A stretch of 64,000 bases of DNA from a virus (IMGVR_UViG_3300035422_000089:9670-73669), one strand, 5' to 3'. Positions 9,963-48,647 are shown, numbered from the stretch's first letter. The notes: generated from the sequence alone by a model not told the origin. A program made the numbers and translations.

Positions 9963-10008
9963 AAAGGAGCAAAGAGGTTTCTGCGCAGGATAAATCATGA
10001 TTTACTCC
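9963..10008 (+). promoter_or_regulatory. Double-palindrome leader E1 (SD-sequestering) upstream of MTase
   Basis: GGAG..GAGGTTT-CTGCGCAG-ga-TAAATCATGATTTA-CTCC, ATG 13 nt later. Confidence 0.7.
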
Positions 10009-10021
10009 AAGTAGATAATTA

Positions 10022-10825
10022 ATGGCAAAAATTGAAAATGATAAATATTATACGCCTATTGGACTGGCAAATTATTGTTGGGATAAGGTGCTTGATATAA
10101 TAGGAGAGCAAAATATATCTGAAATTATTGAGCCAAGTTGCGGAGATGGAGCATTTTATCATCACCCAATAAAAATCCCGCATTTTGGATATGATATAGA
10201 ACCACAATGTAACTTTAAAAATATAATAAAAGATGATTATTTGAAACAAGATATTACATATCTCTGTGGACGATTGGTTATCGGCAATCCTCCATATGGA
10301 AGATGTATGAATATGGCACAAAAGTTTTATAAGAAGTCTATTGAAATTGCAGATTATATAGCATTTATTCTTCCAATATCTCAATTAAATAATACTCGTT
10401 CAATGTATAAATTTGATTTGATTTATAGTGAAGATTTAGGCGTTCATCATTATACAGATAGGGATTTGCATTGTTGTTTTAATATTTATAAAAGACCCGA
10501 AAATGGTGAGCCAAACAAAAAAACAGTATCAAAATTGAAAGATATTTCAATTTATAGACAAGATAGCAAAGGGTATGACAATAAGGATTTTGATATCAGA
10601 ATGTGTTATTGGGGAGATGGAACAGCTGGTAAAATTTTAAAAGATGAAGAACATTATTCTGCTGAATATAAAATTAAAGTAAATAATGTAGAGAAAAGAG
10701 AAGAAATTATTAATGTGCTGTCAACATTTGATTGGAAATCATATTTGAATTGTATAGCTATGAGGAAAATTCAACAATTTCATATTATTGATGTATTGAA
10801 ACAAACTATATGTGGCATTAGTTAG
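10022..10825 (+). CDS. Orphan amino (N6A/N4C) DNA methyltransferase
   Basis: YYTP, EPSCGDG (motif I), IGNPPY (motif IV). Confidence 0.85.
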   Translation: MAKIENDKYYTPIGLANYCWDKVLDIIGEQNISEIIEPSCGDGAFYHHPIKIPHFGYDIEPQCNFKNIIKDDYLKQDITYLCGRLVIGNPPYGRCMNMAQKFYKKSIEIADYIAFILPISQLNNTRSMYKFDLIYSEDLGVHHYTDRDLHCCFNIYKRPENGEPNKKTVSKLKDISIYRQDSKGYDNKDFDIRMCYWGDGTAGKILKDEEHYSAEYKIKVNNVEKREEIINVLSTFDWKSYLNCIAMRKIQQFHIIDVLKQTICGIS

Positions 10826-10862
10826 ATATTAAATTAAATAATATACAAGATACAAAATAAAG

Positions 10863-10921
10863 AAAGGATACGAATGTTCACTAGTGAAGAAAGCTGCGCA
10901 GCTACTAAGTAATGGTGAACA
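10863..10921 (+). promoter_or_regulatory. Double-palindrome leader E2 (57/59 identical to E6)
   Basis: AAAGGA-tacga-ATG; TTCACTAGTGAA and AGCTGCGCAGCT enclosed by TGTTCAC/GTGAACA. Confidence 0.75.
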
Positions 10922-11692
10922 AAAATTAAAGTATTAGAATTATTCGCAGGAACTTGTTGCTTATCAAACGGATTCAAAGCAAGAGGACATGAAACATATA
11001 CGATTGATATTGATAAACAATTTGATGTTGATTGGCATATGGATTGTAGCAAGATTACTACAAAGGATATTATTGAAAGATTTGGTGTACCAGATGTTAT
11101 TTGGTTAGGAACTCCATGTCAAAGTTATAGTATAGCAGCCATCTCACACCATAGAAGAAAAAATGAAGAATCTGGGAATTTAGATGGTGTAAGCAATTTT
11201 GCGAGATTCTGTGATGAAATGAATTGGCACTGCAGAAAAATAGTTGAGGAATTATTAGAGATTAACCCCAATTTAATTTATTTTTGGGAAAATCCAAGAT
11301 CTGCTTTTAGAAAAATGGATTTTATTCAGGGGATACCAAGATATACGATTTGGTATTGTAAATATATGACAGAGTTTCCACCAGAACAAAGAAGAGCCAA
11401 GCCAACAGATTTATTTACAAATCATCCGAACCCTAAGTTTTTACCTGAGTGTAAAAATGGTTCTCCTGACCACGCAGTTGCTAAACGCGGTATGGCAACA
11501 GGAACTCAAGGGATGAAAAATGCAAAAGAAAGAAGTACATATCCAAAACAATTGGTTGAACATATAGTTGATATTTGCGAGCAGTATTTACACGAAAAAG
11601 AATTATTTGATGAATGTAAATCTTGTAAAAACAAATGGTCTTCTATGAAGTGTGATATGTGTGAAGACTTTGATATGTATAAAAGGCAATAA
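10919..11692 (+). CDS. Small C5-cytosine methyltransferase-like protein; true 5' end upstream of track ATG, no in-frame ATG/GTG/TTG before motif I (ATT 10925 candidate)
   Basis: In-frame KIKVLELFAG (motif I) upstream of 11039, GTPCQS (IV), WENP (VI). Confidence 0.75.
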   Translation, partial: TKIKVLELFAGTCCLSNGFKARGHETYTIDIDKQFDVDWHMDCSKITTKDIIERFGVPDVIWLGTPCQSYSIAAISHHRRKNEESGNLDGVSNFARFCDEMNWHCRKIVEELLEINPNLIYFWENPRSAFRKMDFIQGIPRYTIWYCKYMTEFPPEQRRAKPTDLFTNHPNPKFLPECKNGSPDHAVAKRGMATGTQGMKNAKERSTYPKQLVEHIVDICEQYLHEKELFDECKSCKNKWSSMKCDMCEDFDMYKRQ

Positions 11693-11715
11693 TTATATAG
11701 AGAATTATTAAAACG

Positions 11716-11763
11716 AAAGGAGTAAGAGGTTTGCTGGCCAGCATTAAAGATTGTCTTTACTCC
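11716..11763 (+). promoter_or_regulatory. Double-palindrome leader E3
   Basis: GGAGTAA..GAGGTT-TGCTGGCCAGCA-t-TAAAGA-ttg-TCTTTA-CTCC, TTG start 9 nt later. Confidence 0.7.
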
Positions 11764-11772
11764 AAAATGTAA

Positions 11773-47264: not shown

Positions 47265-47309
47265 AAGAAACAATGAAAGATAGGTTTTATTTAAGTAGGG
47301 AGGTAAATT

Positions 47310-47519
47310 GTGGATGTAATTAAGTTTTTAGTTACTAGACCAGATGATACAGTATTAGTTTATTTAATGAAAAACAAATCTGATAATACATATTCGTATG
47401 TAAATATAACAAAATGGCACATATGTCCATGTAAATTTCAATCTATTCAAGAAGCTATTAAGGATATGGATAAATTACTAGAAGAAGGAAAAATTGTGAG
47501 ATATGAATTTACAAATTAG
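47310..47519 (+). CDS. Hypothetical protein
   Basis: 69-aa ORF, GGAGG SD. Confidence 0.7.
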   Translation: MDVIKFLVTRPDDTVLVYLMKNKSDNTYSYVNITKWHICPCKFQSIQEAIKDMDKLLEEGKIVRYEFTN

Positions 47520-47553
47520 ATTATTCATTTGGTTACTTGGAGGTAATTAAAAT

Positions 47554-47946
47554 TTGGAAGTTTTAGCAAAGACAGAATATCAAGATTTATATAGAGTGAC
47601 AGATGGTGTACTTTTAGTAGTGAATAAATTTGTTCCTATCGAATATGAAAACGAAAAATATTTTACTGTACATAGAAGAGGAGTTAAACAAGGCAAATAT
47701 AGTAAAGGATGCCAAGATTGGCTCAAAGTCTTAAAGGAAGATTACTATGATGAATACAAAAATATAATGGTTCCCAAAGGCACAGTTACATATATAGATA
47801 GACCTATAATTCCAACGAATAATCAATCAGATTGGAAATATGAGGTTAAGACAACAGGTAGTGCTTTAAGTGGAGATTTTGACACGATTGAGATGCTGCT
47901 TAGTTCTATTTTATACACGATCAGGACAGGAGAGATAGGAAAATGA
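47554..47946 (+). CDS. Hypothetical protein
   Basis: 130-aa ORF. Confidence 0.7.
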   Translation: MEVLAKTEYQDLYRVTDGVLLVVNKFVPIEYENEKYFTVHRRGVKQGKYSKGCQDWLKVLKEDYYDEYKNIMVPKGTVTYIDRPIIPTNNQSDWKYEVKTTGSALSGDFDTIEMLLSSILYTIRTGEIGK

Positions 47947-48296
47947 AATTACTTGAGATATGGGAAAGAATAGGTAAGCAGCCATTGCAGATTACACGTA
48001 GAAAAGATGCCATAGTATTTATTGGAGATTCTGAATATAGAATTAAAAATATCAGATATGATTGTGGTCAATTTATTGGTTTTGAGGCAGAACTAAAAGA
48101 ACAAGTAGAATGGATAAATAAGGAAATCAAACCTAAAGAAGATACATGGATAATTGTCAAAGATAAGGATGGTAAAGAATATAGAAACCATCAGTGGACA
48201 GGTCATGCTTGGTATGATTTCGTAATAGGGAAAGATAGTTGTGATGGATGGAGGAGTGACGTAGATATAGTAAGTTGGAAATATCAGGAGGATTAA
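47943..48296 (+). CDS. Hypothetical protein with DUF551-like C-terminus
   Basis: WINKEIKP...DIVSWKY. Confidence 0.65.
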   Translation: MKLLEIWERIGKQPLQITRRKDAIVFIGDSEYRIKNIRYDCGQFIGFEAELKEQVEWINKEIKPKEDTWIIVKDKDGKEYRNHQWTGHAWYDFVIGKDSCDGWRSDVDIVSWKYQED

Positions 48297-48300
48297 TCGA

Positions 48301-48567
48301 ATGGCAGGAACATTAAAAGAGATTACAGAAAATTATGAGAAATTACATAGATTACAGATGATAGAAACGATTTTAGATAAAACGCATAGTTATGTTCATG
48401 ATGTAGTTAGCAGAGTGGAAGACGAATTCGATGATTGTGTAGATTTTGAGGATTATATTACAGAGAGCGTGATAAAGAGCACTAAAGAAAATCTTGCTAC
48501 ATTAGGAAAATATTTAGGTTGTAGATCGTATGCTGATTTAATAAGTGATGTAATGCATAAACAGTAA
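48301..48567 (+). CDS. Hypothetical protein
   Basis: 88-aa ORF. Confidence 0.7.
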   Translation: MAGTLKEITENYEKLHRLQMIETILDKTHSYVHDVVSRVEDEFDDCVDFEDYITESVIKSTKENLATLGKYLGCRSYADLISDVMHKQ

Positions 48568-48600
48568 GGCAATAAAACGCTCGTTTTAAGACCTATAAGA

Positions 48601-48647
48601 AGGAGGAAATGAGGTTTGGTATACCAGATAAATGCGCATTTACTCCT
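48601..48647 (+). promoter_or_regulatory. Double-palindrome leader E8
   Basis: AGGAGGAAATGAGGTT-TGGTATACCA-ga-TAAATGCGCATTTA-CTCCT, TTG 9 nt later. Confidence 0.75.

What the first reader, a model, noticed from the sequence alone, without database searches (positions are those of the whole stretch)
9981..48642. Leader hairpin loops vary but stay self-complementary 4-mers that are classic restriction/methylation sites
Seen: loop centres are GCGC+CATG (E1), CTAG+GCGC (E2, E6), GGCC+ttg (E3), TATA+GCGC (E4), TGCA+GATC (E5), GCGC+CCGG (E7), TATA+GCGC (E8); 15 of 16 are perfect palindromes. RNA hairpin folding does not need complementary loops, so something else selects for palindromy. Inference: (a) DNA-level sensors, where these are methylation or restriction targets that couple MTase expression to the methylation state of the incoming genome; (b) the MTase binds its own site mimic for autoregulation; or (c) kissing-loop mRNA dimerisation.
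Basis: partly seen in the sequence, partly recalled or inferred. Interest (0 to 1): 0.72.

Follow-up and report, generated by a model that had tools for sequence, protein, structure and literature searches.

The report
Hypervariable perfect palindromes in phage leaders
Short control regions in front of DNA-methylase and other anti-defence genes of gut Clostridia phages each carry two small sequences that differ between near-identical phages yet stay perfectly self-complementary right through the centre, which ordinary RNA hairpin folding does not explain.

Summary
All eight leaders in the window hold two dyads. Fifteen of 16 are perfect 8-14 nt palindromes, and the sixteenth is a U.G variant of an odd palindrome found in relatives.

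The same ~55-nt leader occurs in more than 120 distinct versions in Lachnospiraceae, Clostridia and Enterococcus phages and prophages. Its layout is strong SD, GAGGTTT, palindrome 1, TAAA-N6-TTTA, CTCC, about 10 nt, then the start codon.
- Palindrome 1 is perfect in 122/122 versions.
- The N6 core is perfect in 102/122; the other 20 are U.G changes.
- About 30 different cores are used.
- Proteins 98-99% identical sit behind different cores.

As monomer RNA hairpins the dyads are barely stable (mean -0.9 and -0.3 kcal/mol), and the G+C sits in the "loop".

- **(b) the MTase binds a mimic of its own site:** refuted.
- **(a) methylation or restriction sensor:** no support in three tests.
- **(c) RNA self-pairing:** fits the statistics best but is untested.

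The leader itself looks like an SD-sequestering translational gate. It has no Rfam match and I found no paper describing it. The scan has noted other, unrelated structured leaders before phage methylase genes on other DNA.

The parts
9963..10021 (+). Leader E1 (type A): SD1 AAAGGAG 9963-9969, SD2 GAGGTTT 9974-9980, two dyads, anti-SD ACTCC 10004-10008. Start ATG 10022 of a 267-aa methylase-like protein.
   Evidence: phrog_799 DNA methyltransferase
9981..9988 (+). E1 dyad 1, CTGCGCAG (centre GCGC)
9991..10004 (+). E1 dyad 2, TAAATCATGATTTA (centre CATG)
10863..10924 (+). Leader E2 (type B): AAAGGA 10863-10868, anti-SD GTTCAC 10876-10881, SD GGTGAAC 10914-10920. Candidate ATT start at 10925 of a C5-methylase-like gene.
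10877..10888 (+). E2 dyad 1, TTCACTAGTGAA (centre CTAG). Left arm is the anti-SD, right arm is an SD decoy.
10892..10903 (+). E2 dyad 2, AGCTGCGCAGCT (centre GCGC)
11716..11772 (+). Leader E3 (type A) before a C5 methylase (TTG 11773). SD1 11716-11723, SD2 11726-11732, anti-SD 11759-11763.
11732..11743 (+). E3 dyad 1, TGCTGGCCAGCA. It holds one of only two GGCC in the window.
11745..11759 (+). E3 dyad 2, TAAAGATTGTCTTTA. This is the one non-palindromic case; relatives have the perfect odd palindrome TAAAGAC[T]GTCTTTA, so it is a C-to-T (U.G) variant.
16899..16962 (+). Leader E4 (type B-like) before a Pnkp/phosphatase-RNA ligase fusion (ATG 16963). TTCCT 16917-16921 is complementary to AGGAA 16959-16963.
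16919..16926 (+). E4 dyad 1, CCTATAGG
16933..16940 (+). E4 dyad 2, GTGCGCAC
19729..19783 (+). Leader E5 (type A variant) before an N6_N4 methylase (GTG 19784). The outer helix GAAAGG 19729-19734 / CCTTTC 19767-19772 covaries with GGAGT/ACTCC of the other leaders.
19744..19751 (+). E5 dyad 1, GCTGCAGC
19758..19765 (+). E5 dyad 2, ATGATCAT
22060..22119 (+). Leader E6 (type B, 93% identical to E2) before an EcoRI-methylase-like gene (TTG 22120). Anti-SD 22073-22078, SD 22111-22117.
22075..22084 (+). E6 dyad 1, TCACTAGTGA
22089..22100 (+). E6 dyad 2, AGCTGCGCAGCT
22665..22718 (+). Leader E7 (type A) before an N6_N4 methylase (ATG 22719). SD1 22665-22670, SD2 22675-22681, anti-SD 22705-22709.
22680..22691 (+). 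E7 dyad 1, TTCTGCGCAGAA
22692..22705 (+). E7 dyad 2, TAAATCCGGATTTA
48600..48656 (+). Leader E8 (type A) before a T4-Dam-like D12 methylase (TTG 48657). SD1 48600-48606, SD2 48611-48617, anti-SD 48642-48646.
48617..48626 (+). E8 dyad 1, TGGTATACCA
48629..48642 (+). E8 dyad 2, TAAATGCGCATTTA

Best explanation
Each element is an intercistronic mRNA leader that keeps a potentially toxic DNA-modification or anti-defence gene untranslated by default.

Proposed mechanism:
- A strong Shine-Dalgarno sequence (GAAAGGAG...) 45-60 nt upstream of an SD-less start codon pairs with a downstream anti-SD (UUUACUCC).
- The two dyads lie inside this helix. One of them always overlaps or abuts the anti-SD strand, so pairing of the dyad competes with SD sequestration (an 'anti-anti-SD').
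- The dyads are complementary through the centre, carry their G+C at the centre and are almost unstable as monomer hairpins. So the paired state under selection is most likely a full duplex between two copies of the same dyad. The two copies could be on two transcripts, or on two leaders of one polycistronic transcript (six leaders here share UGCGCA).
- Such pairing would out-compete the SD:anti-SD helix only when the RNA is abundant. The result would be a threshold switch that ignores leaky prophage transcription.
- Any G+C-rich palindrome would serve. That leaves the cores free to turn over, for instance under the general pressure against restriction-type palindromes.

Shown: the anatomy, the conservation rules, the thermodynamic estimates and the gene association.
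Inferred: translational repression, trans or cis self-pairing, and the threshold behaviour.
For: 1. The dyad rule holds in homologues chosen without regard to palindromy. Dyad 1 is Watson-Crick at the four central pairs in 122/122, with all four pair types at each position. The dyad-2 core is WC in 102 and U.G in 20, with no other mismatch. An SD-anchored sample gives about 84/85 and 82/85, including odd palindromes such as AAACGC[A]GCGTTT.
2. There are RNA-type signals.
   - Opposite the fixed U at pair 5 of dyad 1 the partner is A 78, G 18, U 2, C 1.
   - An R-U pair at position 9 of dyad 2 (A 81, G 32) extends the helix into the anti-SD.
   - Outer-helix variants keep pairing: GAAAGG/CCUUUC in E5, GGAGCC/GGCUUC in phiRM10, and CUUC or CUCU through G.U.
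   - Departures from symmetry are seven or more U.G types against one or two C.A.
3. Monomer hairpins are marginal: mean -0.9 kcal/mol for dyad 1 and -0.26 for dyad 2, with 43% of the latter predicted unfolded. Self-duplexes are -19 and -14.6 kcal/mol. The whole-leader MFE pairs CUCC in 70/74 and forms hairpin 2 in 1/74. G+C is 93% at the central pair of dyad 1.
4. In type B the left arm of dyad 1 is the anti-SD itself.
5. Control hairpin-like motifs with similar arms have non-palindromic N6 in 24/24, so a general mutational symmetrisation is unlikely.
6. Twelve of 16 downstream families are DNA methylases. The rest are a PAPS-reductase-like protein, a sigma factor, a Zn-ribbon protein and one family without a match; a type B leader (E4) precedes Pnkp-ligase.
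Against: - No direct evidence of RNA dimers. No bacterial or phage mRNA is known to me to be regulated this way.
- If the arms fold, the loops are only 4 nt, which is too small for classic kissing. An extended duplex must beat fast intramolecular folding.
- Two different dyads on one molecule cannot both pair with the same partner across a 1-3 nt linker. Chains or only one paired dyad would result.
- The U.G excess can also come from sense-strand C-to-T bias (GC skew +0.29, CpG obs/exp 0.61). Nearly all such changes are CpG to TpG.
- One type B allele has a CUUG centre, which is not self-complementary.
- How the SD-less start codon, 14 nt or more plus two helices away from the SD, is used remains unexplained in every model.
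- Thermodynamic numbers are nearest-neighbour predictions.
Confidence: 0.3

Rival explanations
1. DNA-level dyad sites: the cores are recognition sequences of Type II-like methylases or restriction enzymes, from the phage or from its hosts. Their methylation state or occupancy feeds back on expression of DNA-modification genes.
For: - Symmetry through the centre is what homodimeric dsDNA readers see.
- The cores are 6-8 bp and G+C-rich, as restriction-modification sites are.
- Cores are hypervariable between 98-99% identical phages, as in an arms race.
- Twelve of 16 downstream families are DNA methylases.
- All six TGCGCA of the genome, one of two GGCC and two of three ACTAGT lie in leaders.
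- Decay is almost only CpG to TpG, as expected for 5-methylcytosine.
Against: - Cores do not follow the downstream enzyme.
- Leaders in one genome carry unrelated cores.
- Outside leaders the cores are depleted exactly like other palindromes of equal G+C (0.69 vs 0.66; 0.51 vs 0.51). So they look neither protected by the phage's own methylases nor specially restricted.
- About 16% of second dyads have lost DNA symmetry yet persist in many lineages.
- The sites lie in the transcribed SD-to-start spacer, not in a promoter.
- Helix-extending R-U and U.G signals are RNA-type.
- No reader protein or mechanism is known.
Confidence: 0.2
2. Plain monomer RNA hairpins, possibly clamped by a phage or host protein, with tight CUUG-like loops. 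The first and last loop bases would pair, and the central complementarity would be a structural preference or by-product.
For: - Arms covary and tolerate U.G.
- Odd-centred variants leave triloops.
- A type B allele has a genuine CUUG loop.
- The position between SD and start resembles the T4 gene 25/38 split ribosome-binding sites (PMC3014915).
Against: - Predicted hairpin stabilities are near zero and G+C is placed where it cannot pair.
- The central dinucleotide is always CG, GC, AU, UA or UG in type A. A 2-nt loop would not require that.
- The remaining SD-to-start spacing is 14 nt or more plus two helices, against 5-11 nt in T4.
Confidence: 0.15
3. Portable junction cassette: the leader is a recombination linker at the borders of accessory-gene cassettes (PeSL-like). 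The dyads would be break or exchange points.
For: - The same leader allele precedes different genes, and the same gene carries different alleles.
- L211 looks like a recombinant of two alleles.
- E2 and E6 are 93% identical before unrelated genes.
- PeSLs provide a precedent (PMC2839356, PMC4122927).
Against: - Recombination by homology explains the shuffling but not why the cores must be palindromic.
- No recombinase or nuclease is linked to the leaders.
- Conserved blocks are only 7-8 nt long.
- This does not exclude a regulatory role.
Confidence: 0.1
4. Mutational symmetrisation: template switching at hairpins during replication keeps making the inverted repeats perfect, without selection on the centre.
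For: Template switching is known to create and maintain perfect inverted repeats (PMC8794818).
Against: - Control motifs with similar arms are never symmetric (0/24).
- Core alleles are shared across hosts and genes, so they are old and yet remain perfect.
- From my own knowledge, quasipalindrome correction normally leaves the loop unsymmetrised.
Confidence: 0.05

Closest known systems
Anti-SD leaders that sequester the ribosome-binding site; phage Mu com-mom translation-inhibition structure before a DNA-modification gene (from my own knowledge)
   Same: A DNA-modification gene of a phage is kept silent by an mRNA structure that hides the translation signal. An SD:anti-SD helix is supported by covariation.
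   Different: Here the paired SD is 45-60 nt from an SD-less start codon. Two hypervariable perfect dyads sit inside the helix. No activator such as Com is identified.
Split ribosome-binding sites of T4 genes 25 and 38 (PMC3014915)
   Same: There is structured RNA between the SD and the start codon in a phage intercistronic region.
   Different: T4 structures shorten the spacing to 5-11 nt. Here 14 nt or more plus two helices remain, and the hairpins are predicted to be unstable.
HIV-1 dimerisation initiation site and other self-complementary kissing loops (from my own knowledge)
   Same: G+C-rich self-complementary 6-mers (GCGCGC, GUGCAC types) vary between strains but stay palindromic.
   Different: DIS loops are 9 nt with flanking purines. 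Here there are no spare loop bases, the molecule is an mRNA leader rather than a genome, and dimerisation is unproven.
Methylation-controlled expression of modification genes: CfrBI site in its promoter, GANTC sites in the ccrM promoter, Dam/OxyR control of Mu mom (from my own knowledge)
   Same: Palindromic methylation sites lie upstream of a methylase or modification gene.
   Different: Those sites lie in promoters and match a defined enzyme. Here the cores lie in the transcribed spacer and do not track any enzyme.
PeSL mobile regulatory cassettes of T4-type phages (PMC2839356, PMC4122927)
   Same: A conserved ~50-nt intergenic motif with a stem-loop precedes many unrelated accessory genes and shows reticulate distribution.
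   Different: PeSLs are promoter-terminator composites. The leaders here have SD and anti-SD blocks and strictly palindromic variable cores.

Membership tests
SD-sequestering translational leader | An anti-SD segment is complementary to the SD of the same leader | tested here: met
   GGAGU(AA)/(UU)ACUCC in type A, GUUCAC/GUGAAC in type B. CUCC is paired in 70/74 whole-leader MFE folds.
SD-sequestering translational leader | Pairing is kept by covariation | tested here: met
   E5 GAAAGG/CCUUUC, phiRM10 GGAGCC/GGCUUC, and CUUC or CUCU variants via G.U. There are few independent cases because the searches fixed these blocks.
SD-sequestering translational leader | The structure lowers translation of the downstream gene | not testable with these tools
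   Needs reporter fusions.
Split RBS (T4 gene 25/38 type) | The structure brings SD and start codon to 5-11 nt apart | tested here: not met
   With both dyads folded, 14 nt or more of single strand plus two helix ends remain (E7: 1 + 13 nt).
Kissing-loop dimerisation element (HIV DIS type) | Self-complementary loop sequence | tested here: met
Kissing-loop dimerisation element (HIV DIS type) | A loop of 6 nt or more on a stable stem | tested here: not met
   Perfect palindromes leave a 4-nt loop at most, and predicted stems are marginal. Only an extended-duplex form is plausible.
Kissing-loop dimerisation element (HIV DIS type) | Dimer demonstrated | not testable with these tools
   RNAcofold energies are not evidence of dimers.
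Methylase autoregulation through its own recognition site | The site in the control region matches the specificity of the regulated enzyme | tested here: not met
   Enzymes 98.3% identical sit behind TCCGGA vs TCATGA. The T4-Dam-like E8 has no GATC in its leader. Non-methylase genes also carry leaders.
Methylation-controlled promoter | The site overlaps promoter elements | tested here: not met
   No sigma-70-like call in any leader. TTG-N17-TTTACT lacks the -10 A2, and the spacing varies with dyad length.
Any Rfam family | Covariance-model match | tested here: not met
   Nothing at gathering threshold over the window, and nothing at E<=5 over 9900-23000 (E8 covered only by the gathering scan). 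The only window hit is a tRNA.

The most novel reading that the evidence does not exclude
The dyads are RNA self-association modules. Translation of toxic methylase and anti-defence genes switches on only when leader RNAs are abundant enough to pair with each other, or with sister leaders on the same transcript, through any G+C-rich palindrome. This would be a concentration-threshold riboregulator without a protein or ligand. Its palindromes would be kept in flux by pressure from restriction systems.
Probability: 0.25. Interest if true: 0.9.

Novelty: new variant of a known kind. Interest (0 to 1): 0.68.

Why it matters
Phage methylases are major anti-restriction tools and are often toxic, yet little is known about how they are kept silent and then switched on. 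This leader family is widespread in human-gut Clostridia phages and prophages. It precedes at least 12 methylase families from four or more unrelated classes. It also shows a rule that no standard model predicts: free sequence with strict dyad symmetry through the 'loop'. If the rule reflects RNA self-pairing, it would be a new regulatory principle. If it reflects DNA-level reading, it would link methylation state to anti-defence expression. Either way a small set of reporter and gel experiments can test it. The leader is also a handy sequence tag for finding DNA-modification genes in phage metagenomes.

Tried and rejected
- **Rfam**: no family matched.
- **Megablast of 9900-13100 against GenBank phages**: no match. 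A distant search gave phiRM10 and an unannotated 176-kb gut phage, and both have two dyads upstream of the homologous genes.
- **Leader as promoter** (TTGnnn-N17-TTTACT): rejected. The -10 is poor, the spacing varies with dyad length, and the conserved SD-like blocks would be left untranscribed.
- **Conserved upstream ORF:** rejected. An ATG is present only in some leaders, and the frames and lengths are not conserved.
- **Split-RBS reading:** the remaining spacing is too long.
- **Own-site autoregulation:** refuted.
- **One genome-specific trans factor:** rejected, because leaders on one contig carry unrelated cores. In this window, though, six of eight share TGCGCA.
- **Restriction-avoidance signature of the cores:** none.
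- **Predicting specificity of the E3 C5 methylase from M.HhaI similarity**: the catalytic domain aligns, the recognition loops differ and there is a 93-aa insert, so no inference is possible.
- **Template-switch symmetrisation:** disfavoured by the 0/24 control.
- **Another first-reader note's claim of ~35 copies of a 16-bp palindrome with a free core:** TAAA-N6-TTTA occurs 9 times, and only the 3 leader copies are palindromic.
- **Literature searches**: no description of this element found.

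
Full report
**What the window is.** The window is 64 kb of a 73.7-kb single-contig genome. It is 31% G+C, nearly all genes are on the + strand, and the genes are phage-like. It encodes at least eight DNA methylase-like genes:
- C5 at 10925 and 11773;
- N6_N4 at 19784, 20574 and 22719;
- EcoRI-methylase-like at 22120;
- T4-Dam-like D12 at 48657;
- a phrog_799 methylase-like protein at 10022.

It also encodes a polynucleotide kinase/phosphatase-RNA ligase fusion at 16963.

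**Checking the observation.** Fifteen are palindromic. They are not loops on separate stems but the centres of perfect palindromes of 8-14 nt with no spacer.
- Thirteen of the 39 G+C-containing perfect palindromes of 8 nt or more in the window lie in the eight leaders, which cover 0.8% of the sequence.
- The window overall is poor in such palindromes: 39 against 52.7 +/- 6.3 expected.
- Six-base palindromes are broadly avoided, and GGCC occurs twice against 29 expected.
- All six TGCGCA of the genome sit in leaders.
- A second motif with similar A/T arms, T[AG]AAA-N6-TTT[CT]A, occurs 24 times at gene junctions and never has a palindromic N6. It serves as an internal control.

**Anatomy.** There are two architectures.
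- *Type A* (E1, E3, E7, E8; E5 is a variant). The order is a strong SD (A/GAAAGGAG), 3-4 nt, GAGGTTT, dyad 1, 1-3 nt, TAAA-N6-TTTA (dyad 2), CTCC, 9-13 nt, start codon. There is no SD next to the start.
- *Type B* (E2, E6, E4). The order is AAAGGA, dyad 1, dyad 2, SD, start. The left arm of dyad 1 is complementary to the real SD, and its right arm mimics that SD.

GGAGU(AA) pairs with (UU)ACUCC. E5 has GAAAGG/CCUUUC instead. The Ruminococcus phage phiRM10 leader has GGAGCC/GGCUUC around CCGGCCGG and GGTATACC.

**Relatives.** Pattern scans of IMG/VR and of GTDB genomes returned hundreds of loci. Hosts named in the records are mainly Lachnospiraceae, Anaerotignaceae and other Clostridia, plus Enterococcus prophages.

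I used filters that ignore palindromy: GGAG upstream, and an ORF of 60 aa or more starting 3-19 nt after CTCC. This gave 124 distinct type A leaders, of which 121 have a perfect dyad 1 of 8 nt or more. The three exceptions are one coding-region look-alike family. Chance hits to the same pattern almost never have palindromes.

The pair-by-pair table shows:
- Dyad 1 is Watson-Crick at the four central pairs in 122/122, with all four pair types used at each position.
- The central pair of dyad 2 is WC in 102 and U.G in 20, with nothing else.

A sample anchored only on the SD block (AAGGAGTRAGAGGTTT) gave about 85 leaders:
- Dyad 1 is perfect in 84, with one U.G.
- Dyad 2 is a perfect even or odd palindrome (AAACGC[A]GCGTTT, TAAAGAC[T]GTCTTTA) in all but two U.G cases and one C.A case.

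E3's odd 'ttg' loop is therefore a C-to-T variant of GAC[T]GTC. Type B relatives carry CTAG, CTGG, CATG and one CTTG centre. About 30 of the 64 possible 6-mer palindromes are in use.

**The cores are hypervariable and unlinked to the gene.**
- Zn-ribbon proteins 97-99% identical follow GTGCGCAC+GCCGGC, GGTCGACC+ACATGT, GACCGGTC+ACATGT or the recombinant GTGCGCAC+ACATGT.
- The E7 methylase and a 98.3%-identical homologue differ in dyad 2, TCCGGA against TCATGA.
- One allele (GCTGGCCAGC+GAGCTC) precedes several different genes.
- Leaders on a single contig can carry unrelated cores.
- Of the 16 downstream protein families, 12 are DNA methylases. The others are a PAPS-reductase-like protein, a sigma-70 factor, a double-Zn-ribbon protein and one family without a match. 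E4 precedes Pnkp-ligase.
- The E8 enzyme is closest to T4 Dam (GATC), but its leader has GTATAC and TGCGCA.

Option (b), a mimic of the enzyme's own site, is therefore refuted.

**Tests of the DNA-level option (a).** Across 198 loci I compared the 6-mer cores used in a locus's leaders with other palindromes of equal G+C, outside the leaders. Both are depleted to the same extent: 0.69 vs 0.66 at G+C 2, 0.51 vs 0.51 at G+C 4, and 0.31 vs 0.51 on only 11 observations at G+C 6. The cores therefore look neither protected by the phage's own methylases nor specially targeted by the hosts.

The sites lie in the transcribed SD-to-start spacer, and no promoter-like site is called there. About 16% of second dyads are asymmetric in DNA (GCTGGC, ACTGGT, CGTGCG, GTCGGC, TCTGGA) and persist across several lineages.

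In favour of (a) remain:
- the gene association;
- the restriction-site-like look of the cores;
- the exclusive location of TGCGCA;
- the fact that nearly all decay is CpG to TpG, as expected for methylated cytosines.

**RNA-level evidence.**
- Opposite the fixed U at pair 5 of dyad 1 the partner is A 78, G 18, U 2, C 1.
- An R-U pair (A 81, G 32) extends dyad 2 into the anti-SD strand.
- Outer-helix variants CUUC and CUCU keep G.U pairing.
- Departures from symmetry are seven or more U.G types against one or two C.A.

The last point is weakened by a strong sense-strand C deficit (GC skew +0.29, CpG obs/exp 0.61).

As monomer hairpins the dyads are marginal. The mean predicted energy is -0.9 kcal/mol for dyad 1 and -0.26 for dyad 2, with 43% of the latter unfolded. 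Self-duplexes are -19 and -14.6 kcal/mol. In whole-leader folds CUCC is paired in 70/74, and hairpin 2 forms in 1/74. G+C is concentrated at the centre (93% at pair 1 of dyad 1), where a hairpin cannot use it.

**Reading.** The leader is best seen as an SD-sequestering gate that is off by default. One dyad always overlaps or abuts the anti-SD strand: UUUA of dyad 2 in type A, and the left arm of dyad 1 in type B. Pairing of the dyad should therefore free the SD.

Only two kinds of reader 'see' complementarity through the centre. One is a two-fold-symmetric protein on dsDNA. The other is a second copy of the same strand. Given the RNA-type signals, the failed DNA-level predictions and the free choice of sequence, I rank RNA self-pairing first (0.30). 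This pairing could be between transcripts, or between sister leaders such as E1-E2 and E6-E7, which share CUGCGCAG. DNA-level methylation or restriction sites come second (0.20).

This reading is inferred, not shown, and it has real difficulties:
- the loops are small;
- intramolecular folding competes kinetically;
- two dyads cannot both pair with one partner;
- there is no precedent in bacterial mRNAs.

None of the models explains how the SD-less start codon is reached. The split-RBS arrangement of T4 genes 25 and 38 (PMC3014915) would need a much shorter residual spacing.

The reticulate distribution of leader alleles resembles the PeSL cassettes of T4-type phages (PMC2839356, PMC4122927). 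That may explain the shuffling, but not the palindromy. Template-switch symmetrisation (PMC8794818) is disfavoured by the 0/24 control and by the age of the shared alleles.

**Novelty.** There is no Rfam match, and I found no description in the searched literature. Notes from this scan report other structured or palindromic leaders before phage methylase genes in unrelated genomes. Those have different sequences. A general theme of tight post-transcriptional control of phage methylases seems to be emerging, and this family, with its strict dyad rule, is a distinct and unusually clear case.

Noticed in passing
window, 24 sites, e.g. 3434, 7085, 8370, 8792, 13562, 19222, 19440, 23614, 27144, 48573, 50143, 50572, 53430, 57304: T[AG]AAA-N6-TTT[CT]A inverted repeat, nearly always 5-25 nt upstream of an SD at gene junctions. 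N6 is never palindromic. It may be a junction hairpin or a regulator site; it was used here as a control.
   Followed up: partly
window 10912-10935: The C5-methylase-like gene after E2 has motif I (ELFAGT) at about 10940 but no ATG, GTG or TTG start. The frame opens after TGA 10916-10918, and ATT 10925 lies 6 nt after GGTGA. The same context is conserved in three IMG/VR relatives. Either ATT initiates, or there is a +1 shift from the short ATG 10912 frame.
   Followed up: partly
window 16963-19161: A single 732-aa protein fuses a P-loop kinase (AAA_33), a calcineurin-like phosphatase and a T4 Rnl1-type RNA ligase. This looks like a complete tRNA-repair (anti-anticodon-nuclease) enzyme under a type B leader.
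   Followed up: partly
whole genome (window plus 9.7 kb upstream): There is very broad avoidance of 6-bp palindromes: GTTAAC 0 vs 10.9 expected, GCATGC 0 vs 6.5, CTTAAG 1 vs 15, AGATCT 3 vs 26, AAGCTT 4 vs 24. GGCC occurs 2 vs 29 expected. This holds despite eight methylase genes.
   Followed up: partly
window 11773-13560: The E3 C5 methylase aligns with M.HhaI over the catalytic and recognition regions but has a 93-aa insert (residues 195-288). It is followed by two diverged copies of a recognition-domain-like segment (repeat at 13140-13193 and 13451-13504). This may be a multispecific enzyme like those of the Bacillus phages SPR and phi3T.
   Followed up: no
window 28438-28636 and 30854-31052: A 199-nt direct repeat, 78% identical, 2.4 kb apart.
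   Followed up: no
L143 9501-10815 and 53 similar IMG/VR loci: In a group of ~58-kb gut phages the leader sits between a G39P-type helicase-loader gene and a 203-aa double-zinc-ribbon protein of unknown function. The stop codon of the upstream gene overlaps the leader's first SD (GATAGGAGG).
   Followed up: partly
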